Notes under the pieces: model-generated
Told to the model about the DNA's origin: nothing
What the model saw: the letters and a program-made list of their open reading frames with translations, nothing else
The model's database searches: none
DNA from: an uncultured Actinomycetes bacterium
GTDB lineage: Bacteria; Actinomycetota; Actinomycetes; Nanopelagicales; Nanopelagicaceae
Length of the DNA: 25,804 bases
Reading direction: 5' to 3'
Assembly: GCA_903932695.1 (NCBI GenBank)
Contig: CAIZGZ010000103.1
Location: 1-25,804 of the forward strand
Shown: positions 9,085 to 16,167 of the stretch, piece after piece
Position numbering within the stretch: position 1 is the stretch's first letter
Layout of the letters: the number at the start of each line of letters is the position of its first letter
Made by a program: the position numbers and the translations under genes

Positions 9085-9489
9085 TTAATGGTGGCTGCTT
9101 GACGCAGTAGGGCCTTCATACTCGAGCACGAAGCCAAGGATCGAGATAATCAATGAGCCAAGTGCAATCACAGTGAGCCACCAACCGAGAACCAAACCGA
9201 GTCCCATGGCACACGCTGATAGTCCCAGCGGCAATGGCCACCATGAATGTGGTGAGTAGAAGCCAAGCTCTCCGGCGGAATCCGCGATCTCGCCCTCAAG
9301 ATTATCTTCAGGCAACATTCCCTGGCGCTTATCGCTAAACCAGAGATAGAAACCCACCAACGAAGCGAAGCAGGCTGCTAGGGCAATACCGGTGATACCG
9401 AGGGCTTCTCCACCTACCTTGTAGTAGATGACGTCAACGATCGCATAGAAGATCGCTAACCCAACAAAGAGTCTGTAGGCGGTTTTCAC
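9085..9489 (-). CDS. ctaF: cytochrome c oxidase subunit 4 (actinobacterial CtaF)
   Basis: LPEDNLEGEIADSAGELGFYSPHSWWPL signature; hydrophobic; GTG start directly after the ctaD stop. Confidence 0.95.
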   Translation of the reverse strand: MKTAYRLFVGLAIFYAIVDVIYYKVGGEALGITGIALAACFASLVGFYLWFSDKRQGMLPEDNLEGEIADSAGELGFYSPHSWWPLPLGLSACAMGLGLVLGWWLTVIALGSLIISILGFVLEYEGPTASSSHH

Positions 9490-11157
9490 TTAGTGGCCTT
9501 CCGTATGGATATCTGGGTAGTGAAGGTCGAATGCTGGGCGCTCAGAACGGATGCGCGGCATTGACAAGAAGTTGTGGCGAGGTGGCGGACATGAAGTCGC
9601 CCACTCGAGCGATGCGCCATAACCCCAAGGATCATCGACTGTGACCTTTGGTGCCTTACGGCTGATCCAGACGTTGAGGAGGAATGGGAGCATGGAGAGC
9701 GCCAAGAGGAATGATCCGATGGTGGAGACCATGTTGAGAGTGGTAAAGCCATCAGATGCTAGGTAGTCCGCGTAACGGCGAGGCATTCCCTTGATTCCAA
9801 GCCAGTGTTGAACAAGGAAGGTGAGGTGGAAGCCGAAGAAGAGGGTCCAGAAGTGGATCTTTCCAAGACGCTCGTTGAGCATATGGCCAGTCATCTTTGG
9901 CCACCAGAAGTAGAAGCCGCCGAACATTGCGAACACCACTGTTCCAAAGAGAACGTAATGGAAGTGAGCTACAACGAAGTATGACGCTGAAACCGCAAAG
10001 TCCATTGGTGGGCTAGCAAGAATAATTCCGGTCAATCCACCGAAGAGGAATGTGACGAGGAAGCCGAGAATAAAGAGCATTGGTGTCTCAAAGGTAACTG
10101 CACCACGCCACATAGTTCCGATCCAGTTGAAGAACTTCACGCCGGTAGGAACACCGATCAAGAAGGTCATAAAGGAGAAGAATGGCAAGAGCACTTGTCC
10201 GCTCGCGAACATATGGTGCGCCCACACTGCGACAGAGAGAGCTGCGATACCAATTGTTGCTGCGATCAAACCCTTGTAACCAAAGATTGGCTTACGGCTA
10301 AAGACCGGAAGAATCTCACTGGCGATACCGAAGAATGGCAGAGCCAAGATATAGACCTCTGGGTGGCCGAAGAACCAGAAGAGGTGTTGCCAGAGCATCG
10401 CTCCGCCATTTGCTGGATCGAAGAGATGTGAACCGAAGATACGGTCCGACTCGAGTCCGAGCAACGCAGCTGCTAGTGGTGGGAAAGCAAGTAGAACCAA
10501 GATTGATGTGAGGAGAACGTTCCAGGTAAAGATCGACATACGGAACATCGTCATTCCTGGTGCGCGCATTGTGAAGATCGTCGTAATGAAGTTCACGCCA
10601 CCAAGAATTGTTCCCAGACCTGAAATTGCAAGACCGATAACCCAAAGATCGCCACCAATTCCAGGTGAGTACTGTGAGTTAGCAAGTGGTGCATATGCGG
10701 TCCAGCCGAAAGATGCCGCTCCGCCTGGGCTTAAGAATCCGCCGAAAGCCATGAGCCCACCGAAGAGGTAGAGCCAGTACGAGAGCATGTTGAGTCGTGG
10801 GAATGCAACGTCAGCCGCACCAATCTGTAGCGGCATGATCACGTTCGCAAAGCCAACAAAGAGTGGTGTTGCAAACATCAGGAGCATAAGCGTTCCGTGC
10901 ATTGTGAAGATCTGGTTGTACTGCTCAGTCGACATAAATTGCAGACCAGGGCGAGCCAATTCAGCACGAAGCATCAGCGCAAGTACGCCGGCTACGAGGA
11001 ACCAGATAAATGATGTCGAAAGGTAGAGATAACCGATCGTCTTGTGATCGGTCGAGGTCACCCACTTAACAAAGAGTCGACCCTTGCTCGCGCTCTTCGC
11101 CTTTGGCTGGGTATAACCAGCTGAGGTCGCGATCTGTGGTTCTGCGAATGTAGTCAT
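9490..11157 (-). CDS. ctaD: cytochrome c oxidase subunit I (aa3, A1 type)
   Basis: [58 protein letters not shown]- and K-channel residues are present. Confidence 0.98.
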
Positions 11158-11921
11158 TATGCAGCCGCCTTAAGTGTGTTGATATAGGACTGATACTGAG
11201 CTGGAGTTACAACCTTGACTGAGAAGAGCATTTGAGAGTGGTTGCGACCACAGAGGATGTTGCAACGACCTGGATAAGTACCGAGCTTGGTGCCCGCAAA
11301 CTCCAGATGATTGGTTACTCCTGGGAGAGCTTGTACTTGAATCATGAACGCTGGGATCCAGAAACCGTGATCGACATCTGTAGAGGTGATCGTGAAGAGA
11401 ACTTTCTGGCCAAGTGGCATGTAGATCACTGGTGGTTGCGCAGGGGTGCCAGTGACAACAGTGTTAGGGCCAGTGCCGGCGTCGTCATAACCGATCTGCC
11501 ATGACCACTGTTGTGCATTGACATGAATATTATGAGGAGCCGTCGAATATGAATCGACCTTGGTGATCTTTGATTCATCACGCGCGGTATAGAAGAAGAG
11601 CCCTGCGACGATAATGAAAGGGATTAGCGTGTAAGCGATCTCAACTGGGACGTTGTATTGGGTCTGCTTAGGAAATTCTTCGCTCTTCTTACGATGAAAG
11701 AAGACCGGCCACATGATGAGAACAAAAGTGAATACTCCGACAAATCCGGCAGCGATCCATGACCAGTACCAGAGCGGACCGGAGATGGTGTTGACGCTCG
11801 AGACATTCTTATCAAAGCCAAGACCTGAGTAGTTCTTGAGGGATAGACGCGAGACGACATACAAGGTCAGAGCCACAAGCGTGGCGATGAGGATTCGGGC
11901 GGAACGCTTATTTTGACGCAT
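11157..11921 (-). CDS. ctaC: cytochrome c oxidase subunit II (254 aa)
   Basis: Two TM helices plus an N-terminal hydrophobic segment, [14 protein letters not shown] and [12 protein letters not shown] CuA ligands. TAATG overlap with ctaD. Start moved to ATG 11921. Confidence 0.95.
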
Positions 11922-11927
11922 GGGAGA

Positions 11928-11933
11928 AGAATA
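11928..11933 (-). promoter_or_regulatory. putative -10 hexamer (TATTCT), leaderless ctaCDF
   Basis: TANNNT lies 6 nt before ATG 11921. Confidence 0.55.
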
Positions 11934-11966
11934 ACTGCCCCGCTCGCATCTACGCCTCACAGGGGG

Positions 11967-11972
11967 TACCGT
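11967..11972 (+). promoter_or_regulatory. putative -10 hexamer (TACCGT), leaderless desulfurase-like gene
   Basis: TANNNT lies 7 nt before GTG 11980. Confidence 0.45.
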
Positions 11973-11979
11973 TCTAAGC

Positions 11980-13050
11980 GTGGGTTCAATCACAGGCTTA
12001 GGGAGCCACTTTCAGAGCGAGCTCCCCCTTCATCCCAAGGCGGCGGAGTTCCTCGACGAGGCCTTTTCCGGTGGCTGGGCTAGCCCGGCCAAGATCCACC
12101 AACCTTCTAGGCGCACCGCGCGGCTGCTCAACGAAGCCAAGGAGATCTTTGCCCATCGACTCGATCTCAATCTCGATGAGATCCACTTTCTAGGCGATAC
12201 TCCCCTCGCCTTCCACCTGGGAATCTCCGGGTTGCTCGCGCCAGCCGGACGGGTCTTCTACCCTCAGACCGCGCGCTCGATGGCCTACGCGGTGGCGCAC
12301 TCCCATCCCAACCAGATGATCCCGGTCGACTCCCATGGCCTCTGGCAGGTTCCAAGCCCCGAGAGCGGAGCGAACGACCAAGACCTCTTCGTCTGGCAAG
12401 AGGTCAATCCAGAGACTGGCGTGAAAGTACCCGCGAGCCAGGAGTTTGTCGGAAAGATCTTTGTCGACGCAGTGAACTCGCATGAACCGATCTCTCACCC
12501 ATGGCATGGCGCGATCTGGGATTCACGGGCTTGGCAGGGTCCAGCTGGACTCTCCCTCTTCGCGCTCAAACGAAGCGCCGAATGGACGAATCCTCTTCCC
12601 CACAATGACACGAAGCCGACATCCGGGAATTTCTCTATTCCGTTAACTGTGGCAAGTGCGATCGCACTGGAGTCATACGCTGCCGAATACACCGAGGCTA
12701 CTTCGCATCTCGCAGCGCTTAATCAGCAAGTCAGAAAATTTGTTGCTGAGCATTTTCCAGGCGGCCATGTTGCAGCCACAAGCGACATAGCCATGCCCCA
12801 TCTGATTACTTTCACTATTCCGGGGGTTGATTCCCAATGGTTAGTCAATGAACTTGATCGTCGCGGAATCAGTGTTGATACCGGATCAGCGTGCATCTCC
12901 ATGAACATGCAACCAAGTCATGTCCTTGCCGCAATGGGTCTTCCCGTAACCGGAAACATTCGATTGAGGTTGCGAGCCGATCACAGTGAAGCTGAGCTTC
13001 ACCTACTCCTTCGTGCAGTGAAAGAAGTTAGCGACCAATTCTTGGCATAA
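11980..13050 (+). CDS. class V aminotransferase-fold, cysteine desulfurase (NifS/IscS)-like protein with degenerate PLP site
   Basis: N-terminal PLHP...WASPAKIH...AR.LL; QEVNPETGV; GISVDTGSAC...PSHVLAAMG...NIRL. The canonical SAHK lysine motif reads DSRA. Confidence 0.85.
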   Translation: MGSITGLGSHFQSELPLHPKAAEFLDEAFSGGWASPAKIHQPSRRTARLLNEAKEIFAHRLDLNLDEIHFLGDTPLAFHLGISGLLAPAGRVFYPQTARSMAYAVAHSHPNQMIPVDSHGLWQVPSPESGANDQDLFVWQEVNPETGVKVPASQEFVGKIFVDAVNSHEPISHPWHGAIWDSRAWQGPAGLSLFALKRSAEWTNPLPHNDTKPTSGNFSIPLTVASAIALESYAAEYTEATSHLAALNQQVRKFVAEHFPGGHVAATSDIAMPHLITFTIPGVDSQWLVNELDRRGISVDTGSACISMNMQPSHVLAAMGLPVTGNIRLRLRADHSEAELHLLLRAVKEVSDQFLA

Positions 13051-14017
13051 TTTTGCTGGCAACATCGTTTGCAGCAGCTTCGCCGTAACACCCAGTAAAT
13101 CGCTCCATAAAGAGTTGGTGATCGAAGCGATACTCCTGAGTGCCCTTTGTTTCAAGGCAGAACGTGGCGAGCATCGAGCCAAGTTGAGCACATCGCTCAT
13201 GCGATAGTCCCCAAGAGAGTCCGGCCAAGAAGCCAGATCGGAATGAATCGCCAACACCCGTTGGATCTACCTTGCTCTCTTCTTGAGGAGTTCCAACAAC
13301 GATCGTCTCTTTGCCATGTTCTTCGATACGAGCACCTTTAGAGCCCAATGTCACAACCCTGACTTTCACTTCATCAAAGAGTTCGGCATCGCTCCACCCG
13401 GTCTTTTGCAAGATGAGAGCGAGTTCGTACTCGTTCAAAAATAAGTATGTAGCGCCATGAATCAAACGCTTAATGGCATCGCCATCCATGCGCGCAAGTT
13501 GCTGTGATGGATCTGCAGCCACCGGAATTCCCAGCTGTACAGCGGTTTCGGTGTGACGAATCATCGCCTCTGGATCATCGGGCGAGATGATGAGTAGATC
13601 GATCGGACCGGCGCTTTCATGAATCGCTGCTACATCGATCTCTCGGGCTTCTGACATCGCGCCTGGGAAGAATGAAGCGATTTGATTCAACTCTTCATCG
13701 GTGGTGACCATAAAAGTTGCGGTATAGAGATCTGTCGAAATTTTGCAGTGGTCGGTATTTACTCCGTGGCGTGTAAGCCAATCGTTGTAATCAGCCCAAT
13801 CCTTGCCAACTGCAGCAACCAAGATCGGATTGAGACCCAGTGCTCCCATTCCAAATGAGATATTGGCGGCGCAGCCACCGCGATAGATATCGAGTCCATC
13901 AACGAGAAATGAGAGTGAGACGTTGGCGAGTGATCCCGCAACGAGAGAGTCGGTGAAGCGACCCGGAAAGGTCATTAAGTGATCGCGCCCAACCGAGCCC
14001 GCTACTGCAACTTTCAT
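13028..14017 (-). CDS. adoK: PfkB-family carbohydrate kinase, actinobacterial adenosine kinase type
   Basis: GSVGRDHLM.FPGRF, RGGCAANI, ADPSQQLARMDG, FLNEYE, DPTGVGDSFRSG; syntenic with M. tuberculosis adoK (Rv2202c). ATG 14017 is preferred over TTG 14020. Confidence 0.88.
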   Translation of the reverse strand: MKVAVAGSVGRDHLMTFPGRFTDSLVAGSLANVSLSFLVDGLDIYRGGCAANISFGMGALGLNPILVAAVGKDWADYNDWLTRHGVNTDHCKISTDLYTATFMVTTDEELNQIASFFPGAMSEAREIDVAAIHESAGPIDLLIISPDDPEAMIRHTETAVQLGIPVAADPSQQLARMDGDAIKRLIHGATYLFLNEYELALILQKTGWSDAELFDEVKVRVVTLGSKGARIEEHGKETIVVGTPQEESKVDPTGVGDSFRSGFLAGLSWGLSHERCAQLGSMLATFCLETKGTQEYRFDHQLFMERFTGCYGEAAANDVASKIMPRIGR

Positions 14018-14040
14018 CAATAAACCGGAGCTGGTTCTAA

Positions 14041-14406
14041 TTAGTTAAATGAATCGCCGCATGCGCATGAACCTTGCGCATTTGGATTATCAATAGTGAA
14101 ACCCTGCTTCTCGATGGTGTCCACGAAATCAATCGATGCACCCATGAGATACGGCGTACTCATCTTGTCTGTGACAACCTTGACGGTTCCAAAGGTCGAG
14201 ACGGTGTCGCCATCAAGGGCACGGTCATCAAAGTAGAGCTGGTAGCGAAGGCCAGAGCAGCCACCTGGTTGCACCGCAACACGGAGCGAGAGGTCATCGC
14301 GACCCTCTTGCGCGAGCAACGCCGCAACTTTCGTTGCTGCGACATCGGTTAGCAAAATACCGGTGCTCGTTGAGATGGTTACATCCTGTGTTGTCTCTGT
14401 GCTCAT
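14041..14406 (-). CDS. erpA: A-type Fe-S cluster carrier (HesB/IscA/ErpA family, 121 aa)
   Basis: PGGCSGLRY and CACGDSF supply the three conserved Cys. Start moved to ATG 14406. Confidence 0.93.
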   Translation of the reverse strand: MSTETTQDVTISTSTGILLTDVAATKVAALLAQEGRDDLSLRVAVQPGGCSGLRYQLYFDDRALDGDTVSTFGTVKVVTDKMSTPYLMGASIDFVDTIEKQGFTIDNPNAQGSCACGDSFN

Positions 14407-14413
14407 GGCCAAA

Positions 14414-14419
14414 AGAATA
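14414..14419 (-). promoter_or_regulatory. putative -10 hexamer (TATTCT), leaderless erpA-adoK
   Basis: TANNNT lies 7 nt before ATG 14406. Confidence 0.55.
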
Positions 14420-14498
14420 CCCTCAAAATCCACGGAACGCCGCGCAGGCGAGAGCCAAGATGTGGCGACCCGTCACGGAATAGTTAGATAATAGGAAT

Positions 14499-15650
14499 AT
14501 GGCATTTAACGGCTTGACCGAACTCCTGCTGCTAGGACGCGAAAGTGACCTCACCAGCGAACGAGGTGTCTCCTGCGAAGGCGAATTGCCTGCGCCATCC
14601 GACCCTGAGTTGGTCCAGCGAGCGATCAACGCCCGCAAGAAATTAGGCGATCGGGCCATGATCCTGGGCCACCACTATCAACGAGATGAAGTCATTGAAT
14701 TTGCCGATATCACCGGCGACTCGTTTAAGTTGGCTCAAGCAGCTGCCGCAAACCCGGATGCAGAACTCATTCTCTTCTGCGGTGTTCACTTCATGGCCGA
14801 GAGCGCCGACATTTTGACCAGCGAGAAGCAGGCTGTGATCTTGCCCGATTTGGCGGCTGGCTGTTCGATGGCAGATATGGCTGCCGCGCATCAAGTAGAA
14901 GCAGCATGGGCTCACTTCGAAAAGCTCGGAATCGCGACGCGCACTCTCCCAATTACCTACATGAATTCGACCGCAGCTATTAAGAGTTTCACCGGAGAGC
15001 ATGGCGGCGCGGTCTGTACCTCTTCTAATGCCGAACGCGCGATGAGTTGGGCCTTCTCACAACGAGAGAAGATCTTCTTCCTGCCAGATCAACATTTAGG
15101 TCGCAACACTGCGATAGAAAAACTCGGGCTCTCCCTCGACGACTGCGTGGTCTGGAATCCCTGGAAGCCCAACGGTGGATTGAGCGATCAGCAACTTCTC
15201 GATGCCAAGGTGATTTTGTGGCGCGGACATTGCTCCGTTCATGGCCGCTTCTCTCGAACCAATGTCGATGAGATTCGCCAGAAAGTGGCGGGCGTGAAAG
15301 TTCTGGTTCACCCAGAGTGCACACACGAAGTCGTTAGTGCAGCTGATGTCGTTGGTAGCACAGAAGCAATCATCCGCACCGTGGCCGAATCCGCGCCTGG
15401 CAGCGCTTGGGCGATCGGCACCGAACTCAACTTGGTTCAACGGCTCGCCAAGACCTACACCGATAAGCAGATCTACTTCCTCGATAAGACCGTCTGCTAT
15501 TGCTCGACCATGAATCGCATTGACCTTCCTCACCTGGTCTGGGCGATGGAGACGCTCAATCAAGGTCGAATCATCAATCAGATCTCGGTCGACACGAATA
15601 CCGCTTATCACGCGAGAGTTGCACTCGAGCGAATGCTGGCTCTACCGTAA
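14499..15650 (+). CDS. nadA: quinolinate synthase
   Basis: LGHHYQ, CGVHFMAE, GCSMA, YMNS, GHCSVH, HPEC, IGTE, CSTMN. Confidence 0.97.
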   Translation: MAFNGLTELLLLGRESDLTSERGVSCEGELPAPSDPELVQRAINARKKLGDRAMILGHHYQRDEVIEFADITGDSFKLAQAAAANPDAELILFCGVHFMAESADILTSEKQAVILPDLAAGCSMADMAAAHQVEAAWAHFEKLGIATRTLPITYMNSTAAIKSFTGEHGGAVCTSSNAERAMSWAFSQREKIFFLPDQHLGRNTAIEKLGLSLDDCVVWNPWKPNGGLSDQQLLDAKVILWRGHCSVHGRFSRTNVDEIRQKVAGVKVLVHPECTHEVVSAADVVGSTEAIIRTVAESAPGSAWAIGTELNLVQRLAKTYTDKQIYFLDKTVCYCSTMNRIDLPHLVWAMETLNQGRIINQISVDTNTAYHARVALERMLALP

Positions 15651-15654
15651 AGGC

Positions 15655-16167
15655 ATGACAAAGAACTCTCCTACCCCAAAGCGCAAAGATGCCGAGAAGG
15701 CCAACAAGGTCAACTCCATCACTGCTCCGGTTTCCAAAGATGGCCGTAAGCGTGATCGCGAAGCGCTCAAGGCTCAGCGTTTAGCTACCCGCGCCGCCTA
15801 CATGCGTGGCGAAGAGAGTGCTCTTCCTGTCCGCGATCGAGGTGCCACTCGTCGCTTCGTGCGCAACTACATCGACTCACGACGCAGCATCGGTGAATAC
15901 TTCTTGCCTGCTGTGGCTTTTGTATTAGTTCTCTCTGTGGTTCACAACAAGTTCGTCTCACTCATTGCGATTCTCTTCATGTACGTTGCAATGCTCTACA
16001 CAATTATCTCGGGCTTCTTTATGACCCGTCGCATTCGAAAGATTGTTGCAGAACGCTTCCCTGGTGAATCAGCCAAGGGACTTGGCATGTATGGCTGGTT
16101 GCGTTCGACGCAGATGCGCAAAATGCGCGCACCTGCGCCTCAAGTCAAACTTGGCGACGAGATTTAA
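15655..16167 (+). CDS. DUF3043 family membrane protein (170 aa)
   Basis: Basic N-terminus, LPVRDRGATRRFVRNYIDSRR, two TM helices, Y...RSTQMRKMRAPAPQV. ATG 15655 lies 4 nt after the nadA stop. Confidence 0.88.
   Translation: MTKNSPTPKRKDAEKANKVNSITAPVSKDGRKRDREALKAQRLATRAAYMRGEESALPVRDRGATRRFVRNYIDSRRSIGEYFLPAVAFVLVLSVVHNKFVSLIAILFMYVAMLYTIISGFFMTRRIRKIVAERFPGESAKGLGMYGWLRSTQMRKMRAPAPQVKLGDEI

What the first reader, a model, noticed from the sequence alone, without database searches (positions are those of the whole stretch)
11980..13050. Cysteine-desulfurase-like protein lacking the PLP lysine but keeping the persulfide Cys loop
Seen: the Schiff-base motif reads W-D-S-R-A-W-Q-G-P-A-G (Ala184 at 12529-12531, where S-A-H-K-W/F-G-G-P has Lys). 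The PLP-stacking EHxxV is replaced by TARSMAY, and the phosphate-binding SGTE region reads GDTP. The C-terminal GISVDTGSAC(305)...PSHVLAAMG loop is well preserved and the ORF is full length. Established: NifS/IscS need the Lys-PLP aldimine to mobilise sulfur onto the GSAC cysteine. Inference: this is a pseudoenzyme that may act as a persulfide relay, scaffold or regulatory partner. It sits at a syntenic position near an A-type Fe-S carrier, NadA ([4Fe-4S]) and the Rieske gene, divergent from ctaCDF. This could be an unrecognised Fe-S/sulfur-transfer component.
Basis: partly seen in the sequence, partly recalled or inferred. Interest (0 to 1): 0.66.

Follow-up and report, generated by a model that had tools for sequence, protein, structure and literature searches.

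The report
Cofactor-less NifS-like partner of NadA
This freshwater actinobacterium keeps a well-conserved copy of a sulfur-mobilising enzyme that has lost its vitamin-B6 site but kept its sulfur-carrying cysteine, and it is inherited and lost together with the iron-sulfur enzyme NadA, which makes the NAD precursor quinolinate, so it most likely helps mature NadA without doing the usual chemistry.

Summary
ORF 11980-13050 (+) encodes a 356-aa protein with the IscS/NifS (type I cysteine desulfurase) fold. It has Ala184 where the PLP lysine sits and Arg99 where the stacking His sits, and the phosphate loop is degenerate. The Cys305 loop, Asp163 and Arg328 are intact.

This is not a local accident. 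All 97 Candidatus Nanopelagicaceae (acI) orthologues examined lack the lysine and all keep the cysteine. dN/dS is about 0.1, against 0.014-0.07 for neighbouring genes.

Positional orthologues (ctaFDC<>X<pfkB<hesB>nadA) occur across Actinomycetes. Most keep SAHKWGGP, but several other families have also lost the lysine.

The gene tracks NadA. In 151 Nanopelagicales genomes, 116 have both and 35 have neither. In two lineages X and nadA were removed by separate deletions that left the genes between them in place.

The best reading is a PLP-free, NadA-dedicated sulfur-relay or cluster-assembly partner. It combines two known ideas: the lysine-less IscS of Archaeoglobus fulgidus and the NifS-NadA / NadS pairs of Bacillus and Corynebacterium. 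I class it as a new variant of a known kind, of moderate interest, with no biochemistry yet. The scan had already noted lysine-less desulfurase homologues on other DNA, one of them beside ctaC.

The parts
11980..13050 (+). X: a 356-aa NifS/IscS-fold protein without the PLP lysine (stop codon included)
   Evidence: AF2 model pLDDT 92.6. Foldseek TM 0.85-0.88 to Nfs1, Mtb IscS, Tm NifS and Af IscS.
12193..12204 (+). G72-D-T-P75, at the position of the S-G-T PLP-phosphate loop
   Evidence: Lysine-bearing orthologues have S73-G74-T75 at 90% or more. Nanopelagicaceae have E/P/variable here.
12271..12276 (+). A98-R99, replacing the E-H motif (PLP-stacking His)
   Evidence: Column 99 is R58/K4/L1 in 63 family members and H in lysine-bearing orthologues.
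12466..12468 (+). Asp163, the column of the Asp that pairs with the PLP ring nitrogen; retained
   Evidence: D in 61 of 63 family members and in the outgroups.
12529..12531 (+). Ala184 codon (gct) at the Schiff-base lysine column
   Evidence: The column is S43/A13/T5/I1/L1 in 63 family members, with no Lys in any.
12865..12963 (+). Cys-loop and C-terminal motif G296...G302-S-A-C305...P312-S-H-V-L...G325-N-x-R328
   Evidence: G302, S303, C305, S313, V315, G325 and R328 are invariant in 60-63 family members and kept from the lysine-bearing orthologues. The loop has low pLDDT, as expected for a mobile loop.
11922..11979 (.). 58-bp divergent intergenic region between ctaC and X, with a TACCGT box 7 nt before the GTG (leaderless-type layout)
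   Evidence: The region is conserved in close relatives L082, L083 and L102. Calling it a promoter is an inference.
9085..11921 (-). ctaF-ctaD-ctaC (aa3 oxidase), divergent from X; context only, not coupled to X
   Evidence: This operon is retained intact in genomes that lost X.
13028..14020 (-). PfkB-family kinase, convergent with X and overlapping it by 23 bp
   Evidence: PF00294. It is retained in X-less Planktophila.
14041..14433 (-). A-type Fe-S carrier (HesB/ErpA-like)
   Evidence: PF01521. It is retained in all X-less genomes examined.
14499..15650 (+). NadA, quinolinate synthase ([4Fe-4S] enzyme); the proposed client of X
   Evidence: PF02445, 331.7 bits. Its presence and absence match X exactly in 151 genomes of the order.

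Best explanation
X is the Nanopelagicaceae form of a NifS-like protein conserved across Actinomycetes. It sits beside ctaC and about 1.4 kb (two genes) from nadA. In this family it has lost the PLP Schiff-base lysine, the stacking histidine and the phosphate loop. By established desulfurase chemistry it therefore cannot abstract sulfur from free cysteine. It has kept the mobile loop cysteine (Cys305), the fold, and the Asn143/Asp163/Arg328 core. I propose that it acts as a non-catalytic partner dedicated to NadA. It would dock on apo-NadA and use Cys305 in one of two ways: to carry a persulfide received from one of the genome's two intact desulfurases (SufS next to SufU, or IscS next to MnmA), or to serve as a transient ligand while the [4Fe-4S] cluster is built or repaired on NadA. 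What is shown: the substitutions, their family-wide fixation, purifying selection, the fold, the synteny, and co-inheritance with NadA. What is inferred: that PLP is absent, that NadA is the client, and that Cys305 relays sulfur or ligates a cluster.
For: 1. Active-site anatomy. Lys184 is replaced by A/S/T/I/L, and His99 by R/K/L, in 63 of 63 full-length family members. Cys305, Arg328, Asn143 and Glu145 are invariant, and Asp163 is 97% conserved. The same holds in 32 named Nanopelagicaceae records.
2. Selection. dN/dS is 0.13-0.17 against a 91%-identical relative, where neighbouring genes give 0.014-0.07. The median is 0.108 in 8 Planktophila pairs, against 0.014-0.032 for NadA, PfkB, HesB, CtaC and CtaD.
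3. What stayed conserved. Of 105 columns conserved in 67 lysine-bearing orthologues, the 37 kept in the family include the whole Cys-loop motif. The SGT loop, the EH motif and S-A-x-K are among those lost.
4. Fold. The model has pLDDT 92.6 and type I desulfurase structures are the best structural matches.
5. NadA link within the order. X and NadA are found in the same 116 of 151 genomes and are both missing from the same 35.
6. NadA link at locus level. In 63 Planktophila-type loci the layout is either ctaD-ctaC-X-pfkB-hesB-nadA (37 loci) or ctaD-ctaC-pfkB-hesB (26 loci), with no mixed state. The 26 form one clade.
7. A second, independent co-loss. In another genus the locus reads ctaC-hesB-DUF3043. 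In both lineages X and nadA were excised separately around retained genes.
8. Pathway loss. X-less genomes also lack NadC.
9. NadA link across the class. All 185 X-positive genomes among 301 carry the window-type NadA. Families that are only partly positive have equal tallies for the two genes.
10. Sulfur donors. The genome has possible persulfide donors, SufS-SufU and IscS-MnmA.
11. Precedents. A. fulgidus IscS has Lys replaced by Asp, has no desulfurase activity, and its Cys ligates the [2Fe-2S] cluster on IscU (PMC7585200). It is the best PDB match of the family profile, E 1e-42. B. subtilis NifS assembles the NadA cluster directly (PMC13066941, citing J Inorg Biochem 2026 274:113095). C. 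glutamicum has NadS in the ndnR-nadA-nadC-nadS operon (PMC11995493, PMC2807442, PMC2330246).
Against: There is no biochemical or expression evidence. No RNA run holds the locus.

Only two clearly independent co-loss events support the NadA link. X and nadA lie about 1.4 kb apart, so in fragmented MAGs they can go missing together for trivial reasons.

X is not in the nadA operon. It is separated from nadA by two oppositely oriented genes.

In a gene tree, X is a clade of its own and does not group with the one NadS taken from a nadABC operon.

X evolves 1.7-3.5 times faster relative to PfkB than its lysine-bearing orthologues do, so much of the protein is under weak constraint.

Retention of Asp163, Asn143 and Arg328 could mean that some ligand still binds in the old pocket.

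Confidence: 0.55

Rival explanations
1. X is a general, PLP-free sulfur-relay or Fe-S scaffold protein, for example a partner of the adjacent A-type carrier or of SufS/SufU. It would serve many clients, and NadA would simply be its most sensitive one.
For: An A-type carrier lies between X and nadA in conserved synteny across the class. The A. fulgidus precedent works with a general scaffold, IscU (PMC7585200).
Against: Genomes that lost X keep the A-type carrier, ctaCDF, and presumably their other Fe-S proteins, while always lacking NadA. A general factor should not be dispensable exactly when NadA is lost. No IscU-type gene lies next to X; the only NifU_N homologue sits beside SufS.
Confidence: 0.17
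2. X is still an enzyme. It would bind PLP non-covalently or use another cofactor or ligand in the old pocket, with Arg99, Asp163, Asn143, Arg328 and Cys305 carrying out a different reaction, such as sulfurtransferase, lyase or persulfide reductase chemistry.
For: Asp163, Asn143, Glu145 and Arg328 are invariant, or 97% conserved in the case of Asp163. Arg99 is a new residue conserved at 81-92% in the pocket, which looks like a new constraint rather than decay.
Against: Five of the classical PLP contacts are changed: Lys, His, the SGT loop, the Ser two positions before the Lys, and the Gln column. The Lys column itself is unconstrained (S/A/T/I/L here; D/S/L/G/M/H in other families). Lys-to-Ala variants of desulfurases are inactive by established knowledge. 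In A. fulgidus IscS, restoring the lysine did not restore activity; this last point is from my memory of the 4R5F study and was not checked here.
Confidence: 0.12
3. X is a slowly decaying relic of a once-active NadA-linked desulfurase. It would be retained by inertia or through its position in a shared promoter region, and it is on its way to loss.
For: X is the fastest-evolving gene of the locus, at 28-50% identity within the family against 70% or more for NadA. It has been deleted cleanly in two lineages.
Against: dN/dS of about 0.1 appears in nine independent close comparisons. No stop codons or frameshifts occur in about 100 family orthologues from genomes of only 1.1-2.2 Mb. Thirteen columns are invariant, including the entire Cys loop. 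Both deletions coincide with loss of NadA.
Confidence: 0.08
4. X serves the aa3 cytochrome oxidase encoded divergently from it, for example in handling thiols or copper for CuA assembly.
For: X shares a 58-bp divergent intergenic region with ctaC, and this arrangement is conserved across the class.
Against: ctaC, ctaD and ctaF are retained with 80-89% identity in every X-less genome examined.
Confidence: 0.04

Closest known systems
Archaeoglobus fulgidus IscS (AF0564; PDB 4HVK, 4EB5, 4EB7; D199K variant 4R5F), and M. acetivorans IscS1
   Same: It has the type I desulfurase fold, the PLP lysine is naturally replaced, and the loop cysteine is kept. It has no desulfurase activity, and the cysteine serves as a cluster ligand (PMC7585200). 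It is the best PDB sequence match of the family profile (E 1e-42) and a top structural match (TM 0.86).
   Different: It is archaeal. It is encoded next to, and works with, the scaffold IscU. It keeps the stacking His (SAVEHMSV in the alignment) and has Asp at the lysine column. X is bacterial, has no adjacent IscU, has also lost the His (to Arg), and follows NadA instead.
Bacillus subtilis NifS-NadA donor-acceptor pair
   Same: A dedicated NifS-type protein is paired with quinolinate synthase and acts directly on NadA rather than through a general scaffold (PMC13066941). Genetically, nifS is required for NAD synthesis (Sun & Setlow 1993, as cited in PMC2807442).
   Different: BsNifS is an active PLP enzyme. 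X lacks the residues needed for that chemistry. Orthology between the two was not tested, because no BsNifS sequence was available in the tools.
Corynebacterium glutamicum NadS (cg1214), and the nrtR-nadA-(nadB)-nadC-sufS operons of Actinobacteria
   Same: It is an actinobacterial NifS-type gene genomically tied to nadA and thought to mature the NadA cluster (PMC11995493, PMC2807442, PMC2330246).
   Different: NadS lies in the nad operon under NdnR/NrtR control. The one operon-encoded NadS I fetched (L271) keeps the His-Lys dipeptide and falls outside the X clade, with or near IscS. X sits beside ctaC, outside the nad operon.
Lysine-bearing positional orthologues of X in Streptomyces-size genomes, Nocardioides, Kribbella, Catellatospora, Streptosporangiaceae and others
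   Same: They have the same synteny (ctaFDC<>X<pfkB<hesB>nadA), the same clade (100 SH-aLRT) and the same Cys-loop motif.
   Different: They keep SA(H/R)KWGGP, EH and the SGT loop, and they evolve at the same pace as PfkB. No paper in the searched library mentions SCO2157, my recalled (unverified) tag for a Streptomyces member; I did not search for other members.

Membership tests
Type I cysteine desulfurase (IscS/NifS; PF00266, TIGR03402) | Fold-type I, class V aminotransferase fold with a small C-terminal domain | tested here: met
   AF2 pLDDT is 92.6. Foldseek gives TM 0.85-0.88 to Nfs1, IscS and NifS. The profile scores E 1e-36 to 1e-43 against PDB IscS/NifS chains over the full length.
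Type I cysteine desulfurase (IscS/NifS; PF00266, TIGR03402) | Schiff-base lysine in the S-x-H-K-x-x-G-P motif | tested here: not met
   Ala184 occupies this column. No Lys occurs here in 97 family sequences.
Type I cysteine desulfurase (IscS/NifS; PF00266, TIGR03402) | PLP-stacking His (E-H) and the phosphate-binding S/G-G-T loop | tested here: not met
   Arg99 replaces the His and G-D-T-P replaces the loop. The family consensus is D-R and G-E-P.
Type I cysteine desulfurase (IscS/NifS; PF00266, TIGR03402) | Catalytic cysteine on a long mobile loop (SSGSAC), and the substrate-carboxylate Arg | tested here: met
   Cys305 and Arg328 are invariant. The loop has low pLDDT in the model.
Type I cysteine desulfurase (IscS/NifS; PF00266, TIGR03402) | Score above the curated family cut-offs | tested here: inconclusive
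   The Pfam score is 26.9 against a cut-off of 21.5, but only residues 214-339 match. The NCBIfam NifS equivalog scores 67 against a cut-off of 530.75, so that is not met.
PLP-free IscS of the A. fulgidus type | Lysine naturally replaced while the loop Cys is kept | tested here: met
   PMC7585200.
PLP-free IscS of the A. fulgidus type | Encoded with, and acting on, an IscU scaffold | tested here: not met
   The neighbours of X are ctaC and pfkB. The only NifU_N gene in the genome is next to SufS on another contig.
PLP-free IscS of the A. fulgidus type | Absence of PLP and of desulfurase activity in the purified protein | not testable with these tools
   This needs purified protein.
NadA-dedicated NifS (BsNifS / Cg NadS) | Genomic and phyletic coupling to nadA | tested here: met
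   In 151 genomes, 116 have both and 35 have neither. Two lineages lost both through separate deletions. All 185 X-positive genomes in the class sample have window-type NadA.
NadA-dedicated NifS (BsNifS / Cg NadS) | Co-transcription with nadA/nadC under an NAD-responsive repressor | tested here: not met
   X is separated from nadA by two genes on the other strand. No shared operator was seen in the two upstream regions on a brief look. Regulation itself was not tested.
NadA-dedicated NifS (BsNifS / Cg NadS) | Common ancestry with operon-encoded NadS | tested here: inconclusive
   The X clade (100 SH-aLRT) excludes the single NadS sampled (L271), which sits with or near IscS in a poorly resolved part of the tree.
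NadA-dedicated NifS (BsNifS / Cg NadS) | Active sulfur mobilisation from cysteine and delivery to NadA | not testable with these tools
   The sequence argues against mobilisation. Delivery needs an assay.

The most novel reading that the evidence does not exclude
A whole orthogroup of actinobacterial NifS-like proteins, always found with one subtype of quinolinate synthase, does its essential job through the loop cysteine and protein docking rather than through PLP chemistry. On this reading PLP has been lost and the protein kept for a very long time in Nanopelagicaceae and several other families. NadA maturation would then use a dedicated, non-catalytic persulfide-relay or cluster-capping protein fed by SufS or IscS. 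This would be a trans-persulfuration route between a desulfurase and a desulfurase-like protein, which has not been described in bacteria.
Probability: 0.3. Interest if true: 0.72.

Novelty: new variant of a known kind. Interest (0 to 1): 0.55.

Why it matters
It would show that a dedicated maturation factor for one Fe-S enzyme can survive the loss of its own catalytic cofactor. That separates the delivery or docking role of NifS-type proteins from their role in mobilising sulfur.

It also bears on annotation. Databases call these proteins 'cysteine desulfurase' or 'PLP-dependent enzyme', which is probably wrong for the most abundant freshwater bacterioplankton lineage and for several other actinobacterial families.

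X together with nadA marks which acI lineages can make NAD de novo and which are niacin auxotrophs. This is relevant to their cultivation and to metabolic dependencies in lakes.

Cultured Planktophila strains, and the lysine-bearing orthologues in tractable genera such as Streptomyces and Nocardioides, make the idea directly testable.

Tried and rejected
- **Misalignment hiding the lysine: rejected.** phmmer, a 60-sequence profile and MAFFT with lysine-bearing orthologues all place A/S/T at the K column, next to the invariant W-x-G-P.
- **A second lysine taking over: unlikely.** The only frequent one is K38, which is Arg in lysine-bearing orthologues. The distance to the pocket could not be measured, because no model coordinates are given.
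- **Incipient pseudogene: rejected**.
- **Link to cytochrome oxidase or to the A-type carrier: rejected** on phyletic grounds.
- **Many independent lysine losses: softened.** The replacement residues differ (A/S/T, D, L, G, M, H), but in the gene tree the 19 lysine-less sequences included lie on one side of a weakly supported branch (85). A single old loss for most of them therefore cannot be excluded. The Nocardioides AX2bis (Lys to His) sequence was not in that tree, so I cannot say whether its loss is separate.
- **Apparent 'NadA without X' genomes in the class sample.** Five of five tested turned out to have diverged ctaC-adjacent X genes that the single-sequence search had missed.
- **Transcription evidence: none obtainable.** Only DNA runs hold the locus.
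- **Shared operator upstream of X and nadA: nothing convincing**.
- **The search for related loci with the 60-row alignment failed** because no stretch was conserved enough. It was repeated with a 7-row alignment.
- **Literature searches for 'SCO2157' and for 'pseudoenzyme' plus desulfurase found nothing**.
Full report
**Observation**

The ORF listing gives one ORF at 11980-13050 (+) of 356 aa. GTG at 11980 is the only start codon in the open frame. The DNA reads tgg gat tca cgg gct tgg cag ggt cca, that is W-D-S-R-A-W-Q-G-P, with the Ala184 codon at 12529-12531.

- Pfam recognises only the C-terminal third (PF00266, 26.9 bits, residues 214-339).
- NCBIfam NifS and IscS models score far below their cut-offs (67 against 530).
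- The best solved relative is T. maritima NifS (1ecx, E 1e-13). Its alignment sets fsahKfhGPkG against wdsrAwqGPaG.

**What the protein is**

An AlphaFold2 model built on 60 orthologues is confident (pLDDT 92.6, pTM 0.90). Only the N-terminus and residues 301-310, the cysteine loop, are of low confidence. Foldseek finds type I cysteine desulfurases throughout the top of the list: human Nfs1, M. tuberculosis IscS, T. maritima NifS, A. fulgidus IscS and E. coli IscS, at TM 0.85-0.88. A profile of the family matches these over its full length. The best hit (E 1e-42) is A. fulgidus IscS2, PDB 4EB5/4R5F.

The host genome is a 1.19-Mb MAG with 94.8% completeness and 5.3% contamination. It also encodes a canonical SufS next to a SufU/NifU_N gene, and a 398-aa IscS-like protein next to mnmA. 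X is therefore a third, deviant paralogue.

**How widespread the deviation is**

Record titles of related loci identify the family as Candidatus Nanopelagicaceae, the acI lineage (Planktophila, IMCC25003 and others).

X was found in 22 of 24 congeneric genomes and in 16 of 18 genera of the family. In 63 full-length family sequences:
- the lysine column is S43/A13/T5/I1/L1;
- the stacking-His column is R58/K4/L1;
- N143, E145, G147, G187, P188, P205, G302, S303, C305, S313, V315, G325 and R328 are invariant;
- D163 is 97% conserved.

Thirty-two further named Nanopelagicaceae records show the same pattern. No orthologue contains a stop codon or frameshift.

**Selection**

Against a 91%-identical metagenomic relative, X has dN/dS of 0.13 (NG86) to 0.17 (YN00). 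Both halves of the protein are below 0.2. The neighbouring genes give 0.014-0.07.

In eight close Planktophila pairs the median is 0.108, against 0.014-0.032 for NadA, PfkB, HesB, CtaC and CtaD.

X is thus clearly under purifying selection, though it is the least constrained gene of the locus. Relative to PfkB it diverges 1.7-3.5 times faster in Nanopelagicaceae, whereas the ratio is about 1.0-1.2 among lysine-bearing orthologues.

Of the 105 columns conserved at 90% or more in 67 lysine-bearing orthologues, 37 are kept in the family. Those kept include the complete S301-G-S-x-C305 ... P312-S-H-V-L-x-A-M-G ... G325-x-x-R328 segment. The S73-G-T75 loop, E98-H99, S181, A182, K184 and G186 are among the 68 not kept. 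This is the pattern expected if the cofactor site was released from constraint while the cysteine loop was not.

**Orthologues elsewhere**

The arrangement ctaF-ctaD-ctaC <> X < pfkB < hesB > nadA > DUF3043 is conserved across the class. This covers Nocardioides, Kribbella, Catellatospora, Streptosporangiaceae, Micromonosporaceae and a family with genomes of Streptomyces size. Most of these positional orthologues keep SA(H/R)KWGGP and SAVEHS.

X-type sequences form one clade (100 SH-aLRT). That clade is separate from the mnmA-linked IscS and from a NadS taken from a nadABC-type operon.

The lysine is also missing in other families:

| Replacement | Where |
|---|---|
| Lys to Asp | five genomes of one family |
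| Lys to Asp | Actinotalea sp. C106 |
| Lys to Ser | two further families |
| Lys to Leu | two further families |
| Lys to Gly | one further family |
| Lys to Met | one further family |
| Lys to Ala, with His to Arg | a 2-Mb genome whose NadA is as close to the window's as those within the family (72% identity) |
| Lys to His | Nocardioides sp. AX2bis |

All of these keep GSAC and PSHVL. In the gene tree the 19 lysine-less sequences included lie on one side of a weakly supported branch (85). One old loss followed by free drift of that column is therefore as possible as several separate losses. Either way, the protein has been retained without the lysine across deep divergences.

**Which neighbour matters**

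In a sample of 151 Nanopelagicales genomes at 85% completeness or better, X and NadA (PF02445) are found in exactly the same 116 genomes and are missing from the same 35. The per-genus tallies are identical. I compared the two printed lists handle by handle.

Because the genes lie about 1.4 kb apart, joint absence in fragmented MAGs is weak evidence. The informative cases are loci where the flanks are present.
- In 63 loci of the Planktophila-type genus, 37 read ctaD-ctaC-X-pfkB-hesB-nadA-DUF3043 and 26 read ctaD-ctaC-pfkB-hesB-DUF3043. None is mixed.
- On a tree built from CtaD, CtaC, PfkB and HesB, the 26 form a single clade (99 SH-aLRT). That counts as one evolutionary event, on a short branch.
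- In a second genus the locus reads ctaC-hesB-DUF3043, so X plus pfkB and nadA are gone while hesB is kept.

In each lineage, two separate deletions removed X and nadA around retained genes. The two complete X-less genomes searched (G158, G159) show no NadC match; the two g22 MAGs (G045, G077; 92% complete) show only marginal QRPTase_C matches (24.4 and 20.1 bits against a 23.1-bit cut-off, in 484- and 492-aa frames), which I did not examine. The window's genome has a clear NadC at 203 bits. On that evidence the whole de novo NAD branch appears to be lost in the X-less lineages. The oxidase genes and the A-type carrier persist in every X-less genome, so they are not the partners that decide whether X is kept.

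At class level (301 genomes at 95% completeness or better):
- All 185 X-positive genomes carry the window-type, about 380-aa NadA.
- Families that are only partly positive have equal tallies for the two genes (11/25, 4/13, 24/25).
- All 5 NadA-carrying X-negative genomes I checked, from 5 families with no X match in the class sample, have a different NadA type that is only 27-30% (four genomes) or 51% (one) identical to the window's. One of them has a NadS in the nad operon.
- Seventeen genomes appeared to have the window-type NadA without X. In five of five checked, the family profile found a diverged, ctaC-adjacent X.
- These tallies include one unpublished genome (G264), and includes another (G030). 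No specific claim rests on either.

**Mechanism**

It is established that type I desulfurases need the Lys-PLP aldimine and the lysine as a base to form the enzyme persulfide on the loop cysteine. Without the Lys, the His and the phosphate loop, X should neither bind PLP covalently nor desulfurate cysteine. That is an inference from sequence.

The literature offers two working models.
- A. fulgidus IscS carries Asp in place of the lysine, lacks desulfurase activity, and donates its loop cysteine as the fourth ligand of the [2Fe-2S] cluster on IscU. M. acetivorans IscS1 also lacks the lysine (PMC7585200).
- B. subtilis NifS forms a dedicated pair with NadA and assembles its [4Fe-4S] cluster directly on the enzyme (PMC13066941, citing Jones et al. 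2026).
- In addition, Corynebacterium has NadS in the ndnR-nadA-nadC-nadS operon (PMC11995493, PMC2807442), and other Actinobacteria have nrtR-nadA-nadB-nadC-sufS operons (PMC2330246).

X combines these two models. It is a NadA-coupled NifS-type protein that has lost its cofactor. I therefore propose that X docks on NadA and uses Cys305 either as a persulfide carrier charged by SufS or IscS, or as a transient cluster ligand or cap. The conserved Arg99 may fill the empty cofactor pocket opposite Asp163. That last point is speculative, because model coordinates could not be read.

**Comparison and novelty**

X fails the defining catalytic features of a cysteine desulfurase and should not be annotated as one, although public sources do so. 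It matches the A. fulgidus type in its loss of the lysine but not in its partner. It matches the NifS/NadS type in its coupling to NadA, but not in activity, operon position or, as far as tested, clade.

No paper in the searched library mentions SCO2157, my recalled tag for a Streptomyces member, and a search combining 'pseudoenzyme' with cysteine desulfurase, PLP and 'lacks' also found nothing. Earlier notes of this scan recorded lysine-less desulfurase homologues on other DNA. One of them lies beside ctaC with Asp at the lysine column, which agrees with what I saw in other actinobacterial families.

**Verdict**

This is a real feature under selection and a new variant of a known kind. Interest is moderate (0.55), limited by the archaeal precedent and by the lack of any biochemical test. 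It is raised by the clean coupling to NadA, by the abundance of the host lineage, and by the fact that the idea can be tested in cultured strains.

Noticed in passing
window 14499-15650; loci L267-L271: Actinomycetes carry two clearly different NadA types. The window's ~380-aa type sits beside hesB and always occurs with an X orthologue. A second type is only 27-30% identical and was the only type found in the four such X-negative genomes I checked. An intermediate type (51% identity) lies in a nad operon with its own NifS-like NadS.
   Followed up: partly
L182-L207 (X-less Planktophila clade), L100-L101: A whole clade of the Planktophila-type genus and another genus have lost nadA and X. The two Planktophila genomes checked have no nadC match, and the two from the other genus show only marginal hits. 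These lineages are probably niacin/NAD-precursor auxotrophs. The deletions left pfkB-hesB or hesB in place.
   Followed up: partly
window 11157-11993: The mechanical ctaC ORF (278 aa, GTG at 11993) overlaps the start of X. Relatives have a 254-aa CtaC, which fits the ATG at 11921 and leaves a 58-bp divergent intergenic region.
   Followed up: partly
window 11960-11979 and 14480-14498: TACCGT lies 7 nt before the GTG of X, and GATAAT lies 6 nt before the ATG of nadA. Neither start has a Shine-Dalgarno sequence. The layout looks like leaderless mRNAs and is conserved in close relatives.
   Followed up: partly
window 13028-13050: X and the convergent pfkB-family kinase overlap by 23 bp at their 3' ends, so no terminator can lie between them.
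   Followed up: no
window 14041-14433 and 15520-16167: The hesB ORF (130 aa) and the DUF3043 ORF (215 aa, overlapping the nadA 3' end) are longer than the genes called in relatives (121 aa and 170-185 aa). Their true starts are probably further downstream.
   Followed up: no
L034 (G032), L171, L157: Some lysine-less orthologues outside the family still keep the E-H stacking motif, and one has His at the lysine column. The cofactor site therefore seems to decay stepwise.
   Followed up: partly
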